Below are positions 393-15,404 of a stretch of 64,000 bases of DNA, piece by piece. Each line of letters begins with the position of its first letter. The first letter of the stretch is position 1. This stretch comes from a virus. Lineage: Duplodnaviria; Caudoviricetes. Where the stretch lies: the IMG/VR virus record IMGVR_UViG_3300037067_004901, positions 41,538 to 105,537 of that record; one strand, written 5' to 3'. Both the position numbers and the translations under genes were made by a program. The notes under the pieces were generated by a model. It did not search any database. It saw only the letters and a program-made list of their open reading frames with translations, and was not told where the DNA came from.

Positions 393-796
393 ATGGCTCT
401 CGCTTTCTTTTGTGTTTCTGTATAGTAGAAGTATATCACGAGCGCACAGAAAGTCAATGCTAAATGTTGCCCATCATCACTACAATTACATTTAAGAATA
501 TAAAAAGTTACTTTCTGGGCAATGCGTGAGATAAGCTGATAAATAGGCTTTAAAAAGCGCAGAGAAAAGAGTATAGTATATCTACAACTAAAATGACGTG
601 ATTTGGGTCTCGGGTCTCGTGAGCGAGCCCTTCTCGGATTTTGTCTCAAAAATCAGGTAAAAACCGTTTTACTCGCAAGTCGTTTGTCTTTAGTTCGACA
701 CCCGAGTATCAATTCTCGCAACTCGCAGCCACGTATCGACATACGAATATCGCAACTCGACATTCACCAATCGACATTCACTACATATCTCTCAAC

Positions 797-1432
797 TCTT
801 AACAGTAGATTGGTATAATCCGTTCAACTGTCAAGAGTAGAAAACTGGCTTTCGAGACTTAACTTTCGAGAACTGGCTTTTAATAGTTGGATTTCGACAT
901 TCTATTCTCAACTATATAGAAAGTTAGTTTCTTAACGGAATAGCGGCTATAGTAAGTTCTTAACAGAATGAACTGTAAATATGATACTCGCGTCTCGGCA
1001 ATAGATAAAATCGCTTAAAAACGCTTACATTTTACGCCATTTGCTCTACTTTCTATAGGAACTAACTTTTGTTTACACAAAAAACTCGAAACTCGGATGA
1101 GCTAGTTTCACACTCAAAAGCCAGTTATTTCGCTCGGCAAAAGTTAGAAACTGGCTTTTTGTTAAGAGAATTTTTTAGTTGGTGATGTCCTAGTCTAATT
1201 ACACCCGAGTGCTTTTTTCGGGTGCAGGAAAATACACTGCAAAAACACACAACAAACTACGTGAAAGTGACCAACGGTTACAAAAAAAACGACCTTCCAT
1301 ATGGGTGCCTGTAGGAGTCGTGGAAAATGCTAACCAAAAAAATATCTAACTTTTTATATAAATATATATATTCTTAACAGGAAACTTGTGCTGGTTTTGT
1401 TTAACAGATTTTTATACTTTTAACTGTTAAGA
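797..1432. repeat. Dispersed short motifs AACTGGCTTT (x4) and TCTTAACAG-like (x6), both orientations
   Basis: AACTGGCTTT at 843, 871, 1149 and reverse at 1117; TCTTAAC[AG][AG] at 797, 930, 958, 1372 and reverse at 1159, 1424. Confidence 0.6.
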
Positions 1433-1600
1433 GAATTTGTGTGATTTCCAATTATATAGACATATATCAACATAGTGCTTTTTTTCGTAACTATTGGTCA
1501 CATTCGAGCGTCAAAGTGAAGTTTTTTAAATATCCATTTTTTTTACAAAATAGCTGTTTTTCTTCATTAAAACGATTTTATTTTGCAGGTTAAGATAATG

Positions 1601-1629
1601 TTGACAAGTGTATAGTATTATGATATACT
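1601..1629 (+). promoter_or_regulatory. Consensus sigma70 promoter with extended -10
   Basis: TTGACA-17 bp-TATACT with TG upstream of -10. Confidence 0.8.
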
Positions 1630-1635
1630 TCTATA

Positions 1636-1946
1636 TGTAAGCAGAGAGTTTTGCGACTTCTCTTGTTTACTCATGGTTATCGGTTGTGTTGATTACGAAA
1701 AGTAGGATAATAGTGTAAACTATGTAATTATGAGCGTAAAATTCTACATTGAACGGCGTAGTTGCTCGTAACGTGCTTACCAACACAACTCGTGTTTCGC
1801 GCAGAGTGGACATCGTGTTCACTCGCTTTCGAAGAAGAAGAAGCTGAGAATAGAAAGTGTTGAAGTTGATTCCTCCTTCACGAGTATATTTTCAGTTTCT
1901 TCTTCTTTTTTTCTGGTCAACCTTTTACATTAACCGATATAGCCAC
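1636..1946 (+). ncRNA. Candidate structured ncRNA (~300 nt)
   Basis: Directly follows the promoter, no ORF on the track, many complementary stems including a long-range closing helix. Confidence 0.5.
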
Positions 1947-2061
1947 AATTCGATTAAAATGTAATTATTTTTTTGCGAAAATTGATTGGAAGGATCCTAA
2001 ATTAAGAGAATTGAAAAGTTAGCCACGGTTTGTAGTAGGCTGAGAAAAATGCTCGTTTAAA

Positions 2062-2090
2062 TTGACTTTTAGTTGTATATGTGATAAACT
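2062..2090 (+). promoter_or_regulatory. sigma70 promoter
   Basis: TTGACT-17 bp-TAAACT with extended TG. Confidence 0.65.
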
Positions 2091-2125
2091 ATAAATAAAG
2101 AAAGAAAGTTAAAAATAAAGAAAGG

Positions 2126-11377: not shown

Positions 11378-11719
11378 ATGCACGAAGAAATAGTAAAAAA
11401 ACCATGGGGCGAAGAATCAATTCTGCATATAACAGATAAAACGAAGTTAAAATATATATCTGTTAAGAAAGATGAAGCATTAAGTTTACAATATCATGAG
11501 AAAAAAAGAGAATTTATCGTTTGTATTAGCGGTGAAGTTCTTATACAAGTAGAAAATGATGTATTTAAGTGCAAAGAAAACGATAATTTTTTTGTAGATG
11601 TAAATAAAAAACATAGAATCGTAGCAATTACTGATGTAGAAATAGTTGAACTATCTGTTGGTGATGATAGTGATATTATACGAATAGAAGATAAGTATGG
11701 ACGCACAACAAAAGTATAA
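11378..11719 (+). CDS. Cupin, mannose-6-phosphate isomerase type II-like
   Basis: KPWG...LSLQYHEKKRE...HRI...DIIRIEDKYGR. Confidence 0.8.
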   Translation: MHEEIVKKPWGEESILHITDKTKLKYISVKKDEALSLQYHEKKREFIVCISGEVLIQVENDVFKCKENDNFFVDVNKKHRIVAITDVEIVELSVGDDSDIIRIEDKYGRTTKV

Positions 11720-11885
11720 AATACTGAACAAACTAGCGTATAATTGCGCAGAAATATATAAATATTTTCACACACCAAAATCAAATGACTTTAATTGGAA
11801 GAAAGCAGAAGAAGCACTTGAATTAGATAAAAGAATAAATGGCGAAGATTTTTTATTATGTATGTTAGAGGAGACTAATGGCTAA
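11697..11885 (+). CDS. Hypothetical protein
   Basis: ORF track, operon packing. Confidence 0.45.
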   Translation: MDAQQKYKILNKLAYNCAEIYKYFHTPKSNDFNWKKAEEALELDKRINGEDFLLCMLEETNG

Positions 11886-12048
11886 AATTAAAGTTTTAAT
11901 CAATAAAAAGAACGCAGAAGGTTGTGATACAGGTGATAGAATAACAGTCGAAGCAGATTTTTTAAAAGATAATGCTACGAACATTCTAGTGAAATTACCA
12001 GATGGTAATATAGTCACCAGAAAAAAGAAACGCGATATAATAATGTAA
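11878..12048 (+). CDS. Hypothetical protein (56 aa)
   Basis: SD GAGGAG before ATG. Confidence 0.5.
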   Translation: MAKIKVLINKKNAEGCDTGDRITVEADFLKDNATNILVKLPDGNIVTRKKKRDIIM

Positions 12049-12088
12049 TTAAGGAAATAGCAGTTTAATAAAAATTTTAAAAAAATAC

Positions 12089-12117
12089 TTGACAAAATCA
12101 CATTTATGTGTTATACT
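12089..12117 (+). promoter_or_regulatory. Consensus sigma70 promoter for the Zn-ribbon/Y-RNA/TROVE unit
   Basis: TTGACA-17 bp-TATACT with TG. Confidence 0.8.
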
Positions 12118-12166
12118 TACTATAATAGAAAAGAAAACGTAAGATTATTTAAAAATCGGGGATAAA

Positions 12167-12403
12167 ATGGCAGAAAATGAAAAGGATTTTAAAGTTAATA
12201 TAAAATGTCCATCTTGTCAAACTATAAATAAAGTAGACTATTCTACTTTTAAGATGGCAATGCTTGCAAACCATTTTTATAGATATACATGTGATAATGA
12301 TAAATGTAAATCAAGATTTTTAGTTACTTATAAAATGATGTTTGTACCAATCAAAAGCAATCAGCTCCCTGAACAAGCTTTTGAATCTTTGATAATCGAA
12401 TAA
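12167..12403 (+). CDS. Zn-ribbon protein
   Basis: CPSC...CDNDKC. Confidence 0.65.
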   Translation: MAENEKDFKVNIKCPSCQTINKVDYSTFKMAMLANHFYRYTCDNDKCKSRFLVTYKMMFVPIKSNQLPEQAFESLIIE

Positions 12404-12407
12404 GATT

Positions 12408-12491
12408 TTGGGTGGCGTAGATGAGACTTACTTCGTATGATACACGCATGTGGCGTCGAGCCACAGTCTGTTTCATCGCTTGTTCCCCCAA
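12408..12491 (+). ncRNA. Y-RNA-like unit 1
   Basis: GGTGGCGTAG...TTACTTC...CGCTTGTTCCC, paired ends, upstream of TROVE. Confidence 0.75.
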
Positions 12492-12498
12492 TTCATTT

Positions 12499-12587
12499 TA
12501 AGGTGGCGTAGATTAGGGTTACTTCATACTCAGAGAGTTCGGGCAATTTCCCGGACATAAAAAGTCCCTTATCGTTTGTTCCCCTTA
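12499..12587 (+). ncRNA. Y-RNA-like unit 2
   Basis: GGTGGCGTAG...TTACTTC...CGTTTGTTCCC. Confidence 0.75.
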
Positions 12588-12594
12588 TTAAAAT

Positions 12595-12655
12595 TGCGGT
12601 GACGTAGGCAAGACATACTTCGGCTATGAAAAAGTCTTGTCGCTTGATTCCCGCA
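12595..12655 (+). ncRNA. Y-RNA-like unit 3 (minimal)
   Basis: GGTGACGTAG...ATACTTC...CGCTTGATTCCC. Confidence 0.7.
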
Positions 12656-12667
12656 TCGTTCTTTTAA

Positions 12668-13005
12668 AACTGTATTGGGTGCCGTAGAATACGTGATACT
12701 TCGTATACTGACAAGTAATGTAAGCGCATAATAAATGAGATATAAGCGCGCTTGATATTTAATGATATAAGAATAGACTTACAAAGTTGAAAACTTGTAT
12801 CATTATGTAAGCAAAGCATTCTTCTACATGTCTTGCATGCGACATTGCTTTTATAGAATGTGTAACAATAAGATGTGACGGTAAACCGCGTTATAAATTG
12901 TCATGTGAACGCCTAGCGTGAGCATAGACAACTTACTATAACAGTTAAGGTTCCCAGCCGTTAAATGGACCAAGCTCACTGTTCGCTTGTTGCCCCTATA
13001 TAGTT
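12668..13005 (+). ncRNA. Y-RNA-like unit 4 with ~280-nt insert
   Basis: GGTGCCGTAG...ATACTTC...CGCTTGTTGCCC with an extended terminal stem. Confidence 0.65.
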
Positions 13006-13029
13006 CTAAAATAAAAAAAGGAGATAAAA

Positions 13030-14553
13030 ATGTCAAGATTTAATCAATCTACAAAAACTGTAAAATCTTCTAAAACTGTAAATGCAGAAGGTGCAGAAGC
13101 ATACACTTTAACACCAAAGTTAGAGTTGTATTCGCTTGCTTGTACTTTTCTTGGACAGGATAAATTTTATGAGAAAGCAGATAAGCAATTAAAAAGGCTT
13201 GTAGAACTGATTAAAAAGAATGACCCGGAATTTGTCGCGAAATTGGCTGTATATGTTCGCGAGAAAATGTATTTGAGAACATTACCACTTGTATTGTCTG
13301 TTGAATTAGCCAAAGTACATAGTGGTGACAATCTAGTATCTCGTGCTGTTGAGCGCGTTATACAACGTGTTGATGAATTAACAGAGATACTTGCATATTA
13401 TCAATTTTCAAACAACAGAAAGGATGTAAAAAAACTTTCTAAACTTTCCAAACAAATCAGATTAGGTATTGCAAATGCTTTTAATAAATTTGATTCTTAT
13501 CAATTCTCTAAATATAATCGAGATAATGAGATTAAACTAAAAGACGCTTTATTTATTTCGCATCCGTTTCCAAAAGATAACAAACAAGAAAATATTTTTA
13601 AAAAGATAGTAGATGATACTTTAGAAGTTCCATATACTTGGGAAGTAGAGCTATCGCGTTTAGGTCAACAAAAGTTCGATACAGAAGAAGCGAAAGCAGA
13701 AGCAGTTTCTAAGAAATGGGAAGAACTGATAGCTAGCAATAAACTTGGTTATATGGCTACTCTAAGAAATTTAAGAAATATCTTGGATGCTAAAGTCTCT
13801 ACTATTTATATAGAGAAAGTCTGTCAGTATTTATCGAATGCAAAAGCTGTAAGAAATTCCAAACAGTTACCTTTTAGATTTTTCTCTGCATATAGAGAAT
13901 TAGAAGGGAATGCTTCGAAACATACTGACAAAATACTTTTTGCTTTAGAAGAAGCAGTTAAGATAAGCATAGAGAACATACCAACCCTTAATGGTGATGT
14001 TCTGATTGCTTGTGATGTGTCTGGGTCTATGCAAACTCCTATCTCTGCTAAATCTAAAGTTGAACGTTACGATATTGGGTTATTGTTAGGACAGTTGTTA
14101 AGATTGAAATGTGAAAACAATATACTTGGTATCTTTGGAGATACGTTTAAAGTAAAAAGAACAACTAGCAAAGAACTACTATCGAATACAATGAGACTTC
14201 ACGATATTGAAGGCGAAGTAGGGTATTCTACTAATGGTTATCTAGTGATAGATTGGTTGATAAAAAACAAAGTAGTGATGGATAAAGTAATAATGTTCAC
14301 TGATTGTCAGATGTGGGATAGTAGATATGGGAACACTCAAAACTTCGCTGATTATTGGAGAACATATAAACAGATTGCACCAAAAGCAAAACTTATTCTC
14401 TTTGATATGGCTGGATATGGAAATACTCCTATAGACACAAAAACAAATGATGTGTATTTGATAGCAGGATGGAGTGATAAAATATTCGATATGATAGAAG
14501 CATATGAAAATAAAGAAAGTGCTGTCAAAGAAATAGAAGCGATGGAGATATGA
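13030..14553 (+). CDS. TROVE-domain RNA-binding protein (Ro60/Rsr ortholog)
   Basis: N-terminal NAEGAEAY, LGYMATLRNLRN, PFRFFSAY, vWA MIDAS DVSGSM, FTDCQ, IAGWSD. Confidence 0.93.
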   Translation: MSRFNQSTKTVKSSKTVNAEGAEAYTLTPKLELYSLACTFLGQDKFYEKADKQLKRLVELIKKNDPEFVAKLAVYVREKMYLRTLPLVLSVELAKVHSGDNLVSRAVERVIQRVDELTEILAYYQFSNNRKDVKKLSKLSKQIRLGIANAFNKFDSYQFSKYNRDNEIKLKDALFISHPFPKDNKQENIFKKIVDDTLEVPYTWEVELSRLGQQKFDTEEAKAEAVSKKWEELIASNKLGYMATLRNLRNILDAKVSTIYIEKVCQYLSNAKAVRNSKQLPFRFFSAYRELEGNASKHTDKILFALEEAVKISIENIPTLNGDVLIACDVSGSMQTPISAKSKVERYDIGLLLGQLLRLKCENNILGIFGDTFKVKRTTSKELLSNTMRLHDIEGEVGYSTNGYLVIDWLIKNKVVMDKVIMFTDCQMWDSRYGNTQNFADYWRTYKQIAPKAKLILFDMAGYGNTPIDTKTNDVYLIAGWSDKIFDMIEAYENKESAVKEIEAMEI

Positions 14554-14972
14554 TTGAACAGTTTTCAAAAGAATATATAAATTTTTTAGAAAAGAATAAA
14601 CTATTGCCACTGGATGAAACTGCAAAATATCTAAATATACACCCCGCAACGTTACGTACATTAGTTAAAAGAAACGAAATAAAAAGTGTAAAAATAGGTA
14701 AAAGATATTATTTTAATTTAGAAGATATTAAAAATAATAACAGTAAAGTTGTGTATCCAAGTGGCATAAGTGTTAGTAATGGATATCTGAAAGTTCTTGT
14801 TGGAAAAGATTTCCCAAACGCTGATTTAGATGGATATATTGCTTTACATAAATTAATATTAGAAGCTTCTTTATTAAGACGATTATTACCAACAGAAGAA
14901 ATACTTCATAATGATGGTAATACTATGAATAATTTATTAAGTAATTTATTAATAAAGATAGTAAATTCGTGA
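14550..14972 (+). CDS. Excisionase-type HTH fused to degenerate HNH domain
   Basis: ETAKYLNIHPATLR...KIGKRY; GYIALHKLI...EEILHNDGN...NLL. Confidence 0.65.
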   Translation: MIEQFSKEYINFLEKNKLLPLDETAKYLNIHPATLRTLVKRNEIKSVKIGKRYYFNLEDIKNNNSKVVYPSGISVSNGYLKVLVGKDFPNADLDGYIALHKLILEASLLRRLLPTEEILHNDGNTMNNLLSNLLIKIVNS

Positions 14973-15160
14973 TTAAAGAAAATATAAAAAATAATTTTTA
15001 CAATAAAAAATGTTGTTTTATATGTAAAAAAATATTTACAAAAAGAGATAAAATAGAAAATAATATAATCGAAGTTTTTGATACATCATTTGGTTGTGCC
15101 GTTAAAATACATAAACAGCACAACAATTTTTTTGTAGGAGGTATGGATAATGCCATATAG
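14969..15160 (+). CDS. Hypothetical protein
   Basis: ORF track, overlapping starts/stops. Confidence 0.45.
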   Translation: MIKENIKNNFYNKKCCFICKKIFTKRDKIENNIIEVFDTSFGCAVKIHKQHNNFFVGGMDNAI

Positions 15161-15404
15161 TTCTATTAATGAAATACCTGATTATGTAAAAAAGAAAACA
15201 AAAAATTCTAAAAAACGTAGACAATGGATGCAAGTTTTTAATAGTGTATATAGACAAACGAGAAGCGAAGCACGAGCTTTCGCGGCAGCTAATGCAGTAA
15301 TGAGTAGAAAGAAAGAATATACAAAAGAAGAAGTAAATAGTATTATCAAAGATTATATAAATTGTAATAGAAAAGGTAAGTTTATAGAAGAAGATGAAAT
15401 ATAA
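15150..15404 (+). CDS. ChaB-like protein
   Basis: MPYSSINEIPDYVK...WMQVFNSVY...EARAFAAA. Confidence 0.65.
   Translation: MPYSSINEIPDYVKKKTKNSKKRRQWMQVFNSVYRQTRSEARAFAAANAVMSRKKEYTKEEVNSIIKDYINCNRKGKFIEEDEI

What the first reader, a model, noticed from the sequence alone, without database searches (positions are those of the whole stretch)
12668..13005. Oversized (~338 nt) Y-like RNA carrying a large folded domain
Seen: unit 4 has the same 5' and 3' handles and a longer closing stem (AACTGTATTGGG/CCCTATATAGTT). It encloses ~280 nt with no + strand ORF on the track and several helices: AAGCGC/GCGCTT, CTTACA/TGTAAG, and AAAGCA..ATGTC/GACAT..TGCTTT. Known Y RNAs are about 100 nt. Inference: an unrecognised RNA domain (ribozyme, aptamer or scaffold) grafted onto a Ro60-binding handle.
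Basis: partly seen in the sequence, partly recalled or inferred. Interest (0 to 1): 0.75.

Follow-up and report, generated by a model that had tools for sequence, protein, structure and literature searches.

The report
Giant Y RNA beside phage Ro60
Just upstream of this uncultured phage's Ro60 gene lies a fourth Y-type RNA gene with an intact Ro60-docking stem wrapped around about 275 bases of folded sequence that matches no known RNA family, and I could not test whether that interior is conserved because no related phage could be reached.

Summary
Window 12668-13005 has one 5' and one 3' Y-RNA handle, which pair with each other across about 275 nt that has no ORF over 27 aa.

The handle belongs to a widespread Ro60-linked Y-RNA family (GGUGNCGUAG ... 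UACUUC ... CGYUUGUUSCCC). I confirmed its structure by covariation on 26 units from many loci: 94% of cells paired, and 14 of 17 pairs show compensatory changes. Unit 4 keeps 16 of those 17 pairs and adds seven more closing pairs.

The interior matches nothing in Rfam: no tRNA, YrlA, intron or ribozyme model. It contains no decayed internal handles and has no second copy in the genome. It folds into a strand-specific 5' domain (z -3.3) and a GC-enriched long hairpin.

Conservation and covariation of the interior could not be tested.

Large non-tRNA interiors of 160-304 nt do recur next to other Ro60 genes. Each is lineage-specific, and unit 4 is the largest I saw.

Earlier notes of this scan report about 320-nt Y RNAs upstream of Ro60 in other phage genomes. 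I could not link them to this one.

My best reading is a real, enlarged Y RNA that acts as a Ro60 tether or scaffold, which makes it a new variant of a known kind. The ribozyme or aptamer idea remains untested.

The parts
12089..12117 (+). sigma-70-like promoter TTGACA-17-TATACT with TG before the -10; the likely start of the operon (78-aa ORF, four Y RNAs, rsr)
   Evidence: 11 of 12 matches, the best site in 11700-15200. This is a consensus match only; function is inferred.
12167..12403 (+). 78-aa ORF with CxxC...CxxxxC (zinc-ribbon-like); it ends 1 nt before unit 1
   Evidence: No Pfam or PHROG family matches.
12405..12492 (+). Y RNA unit 1 (short, with a T-arm-like hairpin)
   Evidence: Handle model R1 scores 66.8 bits (this unit was in the training set). 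The independent 5' handle HMM gives E 4e-6.
12496..12588 (+). Y RNA unit 2
   Evidence: R1 scores 71.8 bits. The independent 5' HMM gives E 1e-6.
12592..12656 (+). Y RNA unit 3 (handle plus an 18-nt loop)
   Evidence: R1 scores 63.8 bits. The independent 5' HMM gives E 3e-5.
12668..13005 (+). Y RNA unit 4, the oversized unit (338 nt including the extended closing stem)
12668..12679 (+). 5' strand of the closing stem; it pairs with 12994-13005 in 11 of 12 positions, with one U.U mismatch
   Evidence: Pair probabilities are about 0.9.
12677..12687 (+). 5' Ro60-type handle GGGUGCCGUAG
   Evidence: E 3e-4. The pairs G12681-C12993, C12682-G12992, C12683-G12989, G12684-U12988 and G12687-C12984 match the family consensus.
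12688..12696 (+). upper stem AAUA(C)GUGA, which pairs with UCACUGUU at 12976-12983 (8 pairs and one bulged C)
   Evidence: Read from the sequence. With this stem enforced the fold costs only 2.4 kcal/mol more than the free optimum.
12697..12702 (+). UACUUC motif, four positions invariant and two nearly invariant in the 26 aligned units of this handle family
   Evidence: T25 and C27-C30 are invariant, and A26 is nearly invariant.
12713..12850 (+). interior domain 1: a 9-bp helix (12713-21 with 12842-50) enclosing three hairpins
   Evidence: z is -3.3 on the + strand (0 of 200 shuffles) against -0.6 on the - strand. Helices are listed. GC is 0.31.
12760..12805 (+). long hairpin: a 12-bp stem, an internal loop, then a 5-bp stem with a 3-nt loop
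   Evidence: probability 0.98. It is kept in both the free and the constrained fold.
12877..12962 (+). interior domain 2: an irregular long hairpin with GC 0.44, similar to units 1-3
   Evidence: unchanged by the constraint. Its own z is only -1.3.
12984..12996 (+). 3' handle CGCUUGUUGCCCC
   Evidence: E 0.09, the second-best 3' hit in the window.
13030..14553 (+). rsr, the Ro60 ortholog (507 aa, TROVE + Ro60 vWA); the AAGGAG ribosome-binding site is at 13019-13024
   Evidence: Pfam PF05731 at 8e-27 and PF25045 at 5e-10. PHROG 850 at 4.5e-60. PDB matches are 9L5Y/9KOP at 1e-26, 1YVP and 2NVO.
14550..14972 (+). HTH + HNH-endonuclease-like ORF that overlaps the rsr stop by 4 nt
   Evidence: Pfam HTH_17 and PHROG HNH endonuclease families.

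Best explanation
Unit 4 is a genuine member of the bacterial and phage Y-RNA handle family that travels with Ro60. It is most likely transcribed from the promoter at 12089-12117 in one precursor with the 78-aa ORF, units 1-3 and rsr, and then cut out, as the Y RNAs upstream of rsr in M. smegmatis are. Its paired ends form the bulged helix that Ro60 docks on. Its interior has grown from the usual 20-110 nt to about 275 nt, made of two folded domains. By analogy with the Deinococcus, Salmonella and Thermus phage phiLo Ro60/Y-RNA/PNPase particles, the interior would act as a tether or decoy that brings an unknown host or phage partner to the Ro60 ring.

Shown here: the handle, its pairing, the absence of coding, the absence of any known family, and that large interiors recur at other Ro60 loci. 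Inferred: expression as one RNA, Ro60 binding, and any partner.
For: Ro60 is intact and lies 24 nt downstream.

The handle structure is supported by covariation on 26 units from about 15 loci. 94.3% of cells are paired against 67.7% in shuffles. 14 of 17 pairs have double changes, and the score is 0.716 against at most 0.153 for slid partners. The N:S pair is paired in 26 of 26 units, as GC, CG, AU, UA, UG or GU.

Unit 4 keeps 16 of the 17 pairs and has C:G at the covarying pair.

Independent HMMs find its two handles and none inside the interior. The closing stem is lengthened to 11 of 12 pairs (chance about 5e-4). The canonical Y fold is only 2.4 kcal/mol above the optimum.

Domain 1 is structured on the + strand only. 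Domain 2 has the raised GC of units 1-3.

Large non-tRNA interiors occur beside other Ro60 genes. One of about 200 nt is conserved across three Flavobacteriales genomes.

Published precedent: Y RNAs are processed from a precursor upstream of rsr and tether PNPase (PMC4201824). Phage phiLo Ro60 binds two Yrl RNAs and host PNPase (PMC12135203).
Against: There is no homolog of the interior, so I have no conservation or covariation evidence for it.

Domain 2 alone and the whole interior are only weakly better than shuffles (z -1.3 and -2.0). Domain 1 has plain genomic GC.

In the unconstrained fold, local hairpins (12689-93 with 12702-06, and 12971-75 with 12985-89) replace the upper Y stem. The upper stem carries a bulge and a G.U pair.

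There is no expression evidence of any kind.
Confidence: 0.55

Rival explanations
1. The interior is a selfish or accidental insertion into a once-small Y RNA. It could be an ORF-less self-splicing intron or another mobile or duplicated piece. It would then be either spliced out to leave a unit-3-like RNA with a loop of about 20 nt, or merely tolerated.
For: Homing endonucleases demonstrably invade phage rsr loci. In L200 an HNH gene splits Ro60 between residues 162 and 167, and in L214 a GIY-YIG gene follows rsr with a duplicated C-terminal 23 residues. An HTH-HNH ORF abuts rsr in this window.

The interior is flanked by CAAG repeats (ACAAG|U ... CCAAG|C). This would allow an exon ending in U and an intron ending in G, and removal would leave a normal small Y RNA.

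In L184 a tRNA-like Y RNA carries an extra block of about 170 nt closed by a 12-bp inverted repeat.
Against: No group I, group II or ribozyme model matches, even at E up to 10 with relaxed filters on 283 nt. There is no endonuclease ORF inside. There is no second copy in the 105.5-kb record. There are no terminal inverted repeats at the ends of the interior. I could not assign a P3/P7 core. The lengthened closing stem suggests adaptation to a large interior.
Confidence: 0.15
2. Unit 4 is a decaying or non-functional Y gene. Its interior would be ordinary spacer that may hold regulatory DNA or mRNA-leader elements for rsr, such as the 12-bp inverted repeat acting as an operator or processing site, and not a folded RNA domain with its own partner.
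For: Domain 1 has genomic GC of 0.31. Weak promoter-like sites lie at 12752-12779 and 12774-12803. The 12-bp inverted repeat could be read as a DNA site. The largest unit also lies next to the rsr start in L195 and L196, which would fit a leader role. The upper stem is imperfect, and the free fold prefers local hairpins.
Against: Both handles remain recognisable to independent HMMs and still pair with each other in 24 positions. The closing stem is longer than in units 1-3, not decayed. The promoter-like sites are no more frequent than in shuffles (20 found against 18.2 expected). Domain 1 structure is strand-specific, as expected for RNA rather than for a DNA site.
Confidence: 0.2
3. The interior is the remnant of several former Y units, a collapsed array nested between the outer halves of two units.
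For: Short resemblances exist. CGCTTGAT at 12749 resembles the 3' handle of unit 3, and AGAATAGACTTAC at 12770 resembles GTAGATGAGACTTAC of unit 1.
Against: The handle HMMs give no hit anywhere in 12704-12976, even at E 100. The outer 5' and 3' stems are complementary to each other, so they belong to one unit.
Confidence: 0.04

Closest known systems
Bacterial and phage Y RNAs bound by Rsr/Ro60 (Yrn1/Yrn2 of Deinococcus, YrlA/YrlB of Salmonella and M. smegmatis; Chen et al. 2014, PMC4201824)
   Same: The gene lies next to rsr, upstream of it and on the same strand, as in M. smegmatis. Its 5' and 3' ends pair into a bulged helix with a short conserved 5' motif. Several Y RNAs occur per locus, each with a different effector module.
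   Different: The motif here is GNCGUAG, not GNCGAA(N)G. There is no tRNA-like domain. The RNA is about 320-340 nt, against roughly 70-130 nt for the known ones (sizes from my own knowledge of these papers).
Rfam YrlA, RF02553
   Same: In related loci, units that carry this same handle have a tRNA-like core that RF02553 recognises. L001 5051-5114 scores 35.7 bits on model positions 24-84. L200 and L214 units score about 44 bits.
   Different: All those hits are below the gathering score of 69. In L001 only the tRNA-like core aligns, not the handle. None of the four window units gives any RF02553 hit at E up to 10.
Thermus phage phiLo Ro60 with Yrl1 and Yrl2 (PMC12135203)
   Same: It is a phage-encoded Ro60 with Y-like RNAs just upstream. 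It has been shown to bind them and host PNPase, which is the best functional analogy for a phage.
   Different: The phiLo RNAs are small stem-bulge-stem RNAs with a CGAA motif. The window Ro60 is only distantly related to the solved TROVE protein 9L5Y/9KOP (E 1e-26); that this entry is the phiLo protein is my assumption.
Other large, lineage-specific Y interiors seen here
   Same: They share the handle family, sit beside Ro60 and have non-tRNA interiors. Examples: L354/L364/L357 at about 200-215 nt, L371 group at 214, L154 group at 201, L195 at about 200 and 240, L196 at about 225, L214 at 231 and L184 at 304.
   Different: nhmmer finds no sequence similarity between any of them and unit 4, or among the groups. 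No k-mer motif is shared beyond UACUUC. Unit 4 is the largest.

Membership tests
Ro60-associated Y RNA, GGUGNCGUAG/UACUUC handle family | Encoded next to a Ro60 (TROVE) gene | tested here: met
   rsr starts 24 nt after the unit, on the same strand.
Ro60-associated Y RNA, GGUGNCGUAG/UACUUC handle family | 5' handle plus UACUUC motif | tested here: met
   An HMM built from 23 units of other loci hits 12674-12703 with E 3e-4. Only four hits in the window are below E 1.
Ro60-associated Y RNA, GGUGNCGUAG/UACUUC handle family | 3' handle CGYUUGUUSCCC | tested here: met
   12977-12998 has E 0.09. This is weak because the motif is short, but it is the second-best 3' hit and is in the right place. Repeat family D2 also includes it.
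Ro60-associated Y RNA, GGUGNCGUAG/UACUUC handle family | The 17 consensus base pairs of closing stem, bulged handle helix and upper stem | tested here: met
   The consensus is supported by covariation. Unit 4 forms 16 of the 17 pairs, with a U.U at 12676/12997, and adds seven more closing pairs.
Ro60-associated Y RNA, GGUGNCGUAG/UACUUC handle family | Size and interior typical of the family (roughly 55-130 nt, up to about 300) | tested here: not met
   The unit is 338 nt. The covariance model R1 cannot span it. The largest other real unit seen is 304 nt, in L184.
Ro60-associated Y RNA, GGUGNCGUAG/UACUUC handle family | Accumulates as a stable RNA and is bound by Ro60 | not testable with these tools
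There are no RNA data.
Rfam YrlA (RF02553) | Covariance-model score at or above the gathering score of 69 bits | tested here: not met
   There is no hit at all in 12300-13100 at E up to 10.
Rfam YrlA (RF02553) | tRNA-like domain (T arm, D arm, closed acceptor) | tested here: not met
   There is no tRNA or YrlA hit, and ARAGORN finds nothing there.
Group I or group II self-splicing intron | Match to the intron core models | tested here: not met
   No Rfam intron family matches at E up to 10 on 283 nt with relaxed filters.
Group I or group II self-splicing intron | Splice-site signatures and an insert-free allele | tested here: inconclusive
   A U-ending exon and a G-ending insert are possible at the CAAG repeats. 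That is weak evidence. No kin sequence or reads were available to look for an insert-free form.
Metazoan Y RNA / sbRNA (RF00019, RF01656) | Covariance-model match | tested here: not met
   There is no hit at E up to 10.

The most novel reading that the evidence does not exclude
The 275-nt interior is a new, self-contained functional RNA domain carried on a Ro60-docking handle. It could be a scaffold that recruits a specific nuclease, repair enzyme or defence protein, a structured decoy, or even a catalytic RNA. If so, phage Y RNAs would be a general delivery platform on which large new RNA modules evolve.
Probability: 0.35. Interest if true: 0.75.

Novelty: new variant of a known kind. Interest (0 to 1): 0.55.

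Why it matters
Y RNAs are understood as small adaptors: one end docks on Ro60 and the other chooses the partner. A phage Y RNA with an interior three times the usual size, matching no described RNA, would mean the adaptor end can grow into a large structured domain.

It gives a concrete, clonable object: promoter, three small Y RNAs, one giant Y RNA and Ro60, all within 2.5 kb. With it one can ask what phage Ro60 particles bind during infection, which is still an open question.

Tried and rejected
Searches for homologs of the interior all came back empty:
- blastn (distant mode) of 12100-13100 against GenBank phages.
- nhmmer and sensitive blastn of the unit and its interior against about 390 fetched loci.
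- IMG/VR patterns for giant units with this handle. The single hit, L264, is an ordinary four-unit array.
- The junction pattern CGTAG..TACTTCG(N)ATACTGA, which found only the L195 contig.

Searches for kin of the phage also failed:
- TerL in IMG/VR and in five large Ro60-bearing records found none.
- GroEL returned 80 loci, none with Ro60, TerL or other window proteins apart from one weak cupin match in L268 (29.6% identity over 81 residues, E 2.6e-6).
- Ro60 itself returned 1 + 80 viral, 60 metagenome and 49 genome loci at 28-64% identity. Their Y arrays were inspected by script and by eye.

My regex and duplex scans for long units were noisy. Most 'long' hits were coding sequence or pairings across neighbouring units, and I did not use them as evidence.

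L225/L227 looked like a Y-type RNA of about 285 nt upstream of Ro60, but it folds no better than shuffles (z +0.37) and the two loci are identical. I dropped it.

Other ideas considered and rejected:
- A collapsed array of decayed units.
- Antisense or - strand coding: the 51-aa and 61-aa ORFs have no credible family match (one below-threshold Pfam hit, E 0.097).
- Complementarity or a repeat elsewhere in the phage genome: only chance 11-12-mers.
- An internal promoter: such sites are no more frequent than chance.

Earlier notes of this scan on about 320-nt Y RNAs in other genomes could not be tied to this sequence. Look-ups by sequence and by relatives found no look-alike.

Full report
**What is there.** The window comes from an uncultured phage record of 105.5 kb. 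At 13030-14553 it encodes a 507-aa Ro60 ortholog. The evidence is Pfam TROVE at 8e-27 and the Ro60 vWA domain at 5e-10, PHROG 850 at 4.5e-60, and PDB matches to 9L5Y/9KOP, 1YVP and 2NVO. Its nearest relatives, at 53-62% identity, are all from Bacteroidota, so a Bacteroidota host is a reasonable inference.

Between a strong sigma-70-like promoter (12089-12117), a 78-aa zinc-ribbon-like ORF (12167-12403) and rsr lie four tightly packed units. They share 5' GGUGNCGUAG, an 8-9-nt stem and UACUUC, then a 3' complementary stem followed by CG(C/U)UUG(U/A)U(C/G)CCC. These four are the only such units in the whole record.

**The handle family is real, and unit 4 belongs to it.** The same handle occurs beside Ro60 genes in many phage, metagenome and Bacteroidota loci. 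I aligned 26 short units from about 15 loci and counted a 17-pair structure.
- 94.3% of cells pair, against 67.7% in shuffles.
- 14 of 17 pairs show changes on both sides.
- The covariation score is 0.716, against 0.204 for shuffles and at most 0.153 for slid partners.
- The variable N of GGUGNCG pairs with the S of UUSCCC in 26 of 26 units, as GC, CG, AU, UA, UG or GU.

Unit 4 forms 16 of these 17 pairs (C12682:G12992 at the covarying position). It extends the closing stem to 11 of 12 pairs. HMMs built without any window sequence find the 5' handle four times in 64 kb, once per unit, with unit 4 at E 3e-4 and the next hit at E 3.2. They rank the unit 4 3' handle second. Enforcing the canonical Y fold costs 2.4 kcal/mol relative to the free optimum, which is within the error of the energy model.

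**The interior (about 12703-12975).**
- It has no + strand ORF over 27 aa, and the two short - strand ORFs have no credible family match (one below-threshold Pfam hit, E 0.097).
- No Rfam family matches, at gathering thresholds over the whole window or at E up to 10 with relaxed filters over 801 and 283 nt. That excludes recognisable tRNA, YrlA, metazoan Y RNA, tmRNA, RNase P, group I or II introns and the small ribozymes.
- It contains no internal handle remnants and has no other copy or long complement in the genome.
- Two elements survive both free and constrained folding: the 12760-12805 hairpin (12-bp stem, probability 0.98) and the 12877-12962 long hairpin.
- The 5' domain 12713-12850 is much more stable than shuffles on the + strand (z -3.3, 0 of 200) but not on the - strand (z -0.6). 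The 3' domain is not distinctive by energy (z -1.3), but it has GC 0.44, like units 1-3 (0.43-0.52) and unlike the genome (0.31).

**What could not be tested.** I found no kin of this phage through TerL, GroEL or Ro60. I found no sequence similar to the interior.

**Context from other Ro60 loci.** Interiors of 160-304 nt that are not tRNA-like recur:
- L195: about 200 nt and about 240 nt, the latter directly upstream of rsr.
- L196: about 225 nt, directly upstream of rsr.
- L247: about 200 nt.
- L197 and L198: 160-180 nt.
- L214: 231 nt.
- L184: 304 nt, a tRNA-like unit plus a block of about 170 nt closed by a 12-bp inverted repeat.
- The L154 group: 201 nt, in 6 loci.
- The L371 group: 214 nt.
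- L354, L364 and L357 in Flavobacteriales: 200-215 nt.

Each group is recognisable only among close relatives, and they share no motif beyond UACUUC. Their folds have z of -1.2 to -4.8. The Flavobacteriales RNA is strongly conserved over three genomes. So enlarged, lineage-specific effector modules are a recurrent feature of this Y family, and unit 4 is its extreme.

Rfam's YrlA model sees only the tRNA-like core of such units (positions 24-84, 35.7 bits in L001) and not this handle.

**Mechanism.** The best-supported reading (0.55) is an enlarged Y RNA. Ro60 docks on the terminal bulged helix, and the interior tethers or sequesters a partner. This follows the Ro60/Y-RNA/PNPase particles of Deinococcus and Salmonella (PMC4201824) and of Thermus phage phiLo (PMC12135203). 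Expression, processing, binding and the partner are all inferred.

The rivals are:
- A mobile or intron-like insertion (0.15). Homing endonucleases at rsr loci make this plausible, but it has no model match and no internal ORF.
- A decaying unit whose interior is spacer or an rsr leader (0.20).
- A collapsed array (0.04), which disfavours.

**Relation to earlier notes of this scan.** Notes on other genomes describe about 300-320-nt Y RNAs just upstream of phage Ro60 genes, and one claims a family of at least 30. I could not reproduce a link. Look-ups by sequence and by relatives found nothing, and none of my loci held a homolog.

**Verdict.** It is a new variant of a known kind and is of moderate interest.

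Noticed in passing
window 14550-14972; L200 2262-2939; L214 4000-4761: Homing endonucleases cluster at phage rsr genes. In the window an HTH+HNH ORF overlaps the rsr stop. In L200 an HNH gene splits Ro60 between residues 162 and 167, with the two halves in different frames. In L214 a GIY-YIG gene follows rsr, and after it comes a second copy of the last 23 Ro60 residues. No Rfam intron model matches in L200 or L214.
   Followed up: partly
L001 5015-5082: The Rfam tRNA model (30 bits) aligns the 5' handle GGUGGCG-UA-G of a tRNA-like Y unit as acceptor strand + U8 A9 + the start of the D stem, and aligns UUCGACAUGUAAUCGAG as the anticodon arm. The whole handle family may therefore derive from a tRNA, with the invariant UACUUC lying at the D-stem to anticodon-stem junction in that alignment.
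   Followed up: no
window 12167-12403: A 78-aa CxxC...CxxxxC ORF with no Pfam or PHROG family sits between the operon promoter and the Y array, ending 1 nt before unit 1. It may be a partner of the RNP.
   Followed up: no
window 653-2098: This is the longest stretch of the record without an ORF of 80 aa or more (1446 nt, GC 0.34). I did not examine it.
   Followed up: no
L214 1950-2480: About 530 nt upstream of another phage's Ro60 has no ORF and no Y handle, but it is visibly rich in G+C blocks. It is possibly another structured RNA.
   Followed up: no
L184 4668-4975: A 304-nt Y unit consists of a complete tRNA-like module followed by about 170 nt enclosed by the inverted repeat AGCTTGTTTAGA / TCTAAACAAGCT. 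It looks like a hairpin-closed insertion between the D arm and the 3' stem.
   Followed up: partly
L354 4096-4312, L364 4429-4646, L357 4111-4342: A non-tRNA Y RNA of about 200-215 nt is conserved in three Flavobacteriales/Chryseobacterium genomes, one of which has an extra 23-nt hairpin. It has no Rfam family.
   Followed up: partly
window 12689-12706 and 12971-12989: In unit 4 only, local hairpins (AUACG/CGUAU and CAAGC/GCUUG) can sequester the upper stem and the conserved CGCUUG of the 3' handle. They win by 2.4 kcal/mol in the free fold, so a conformational switch is possible.
   Followed up: partly
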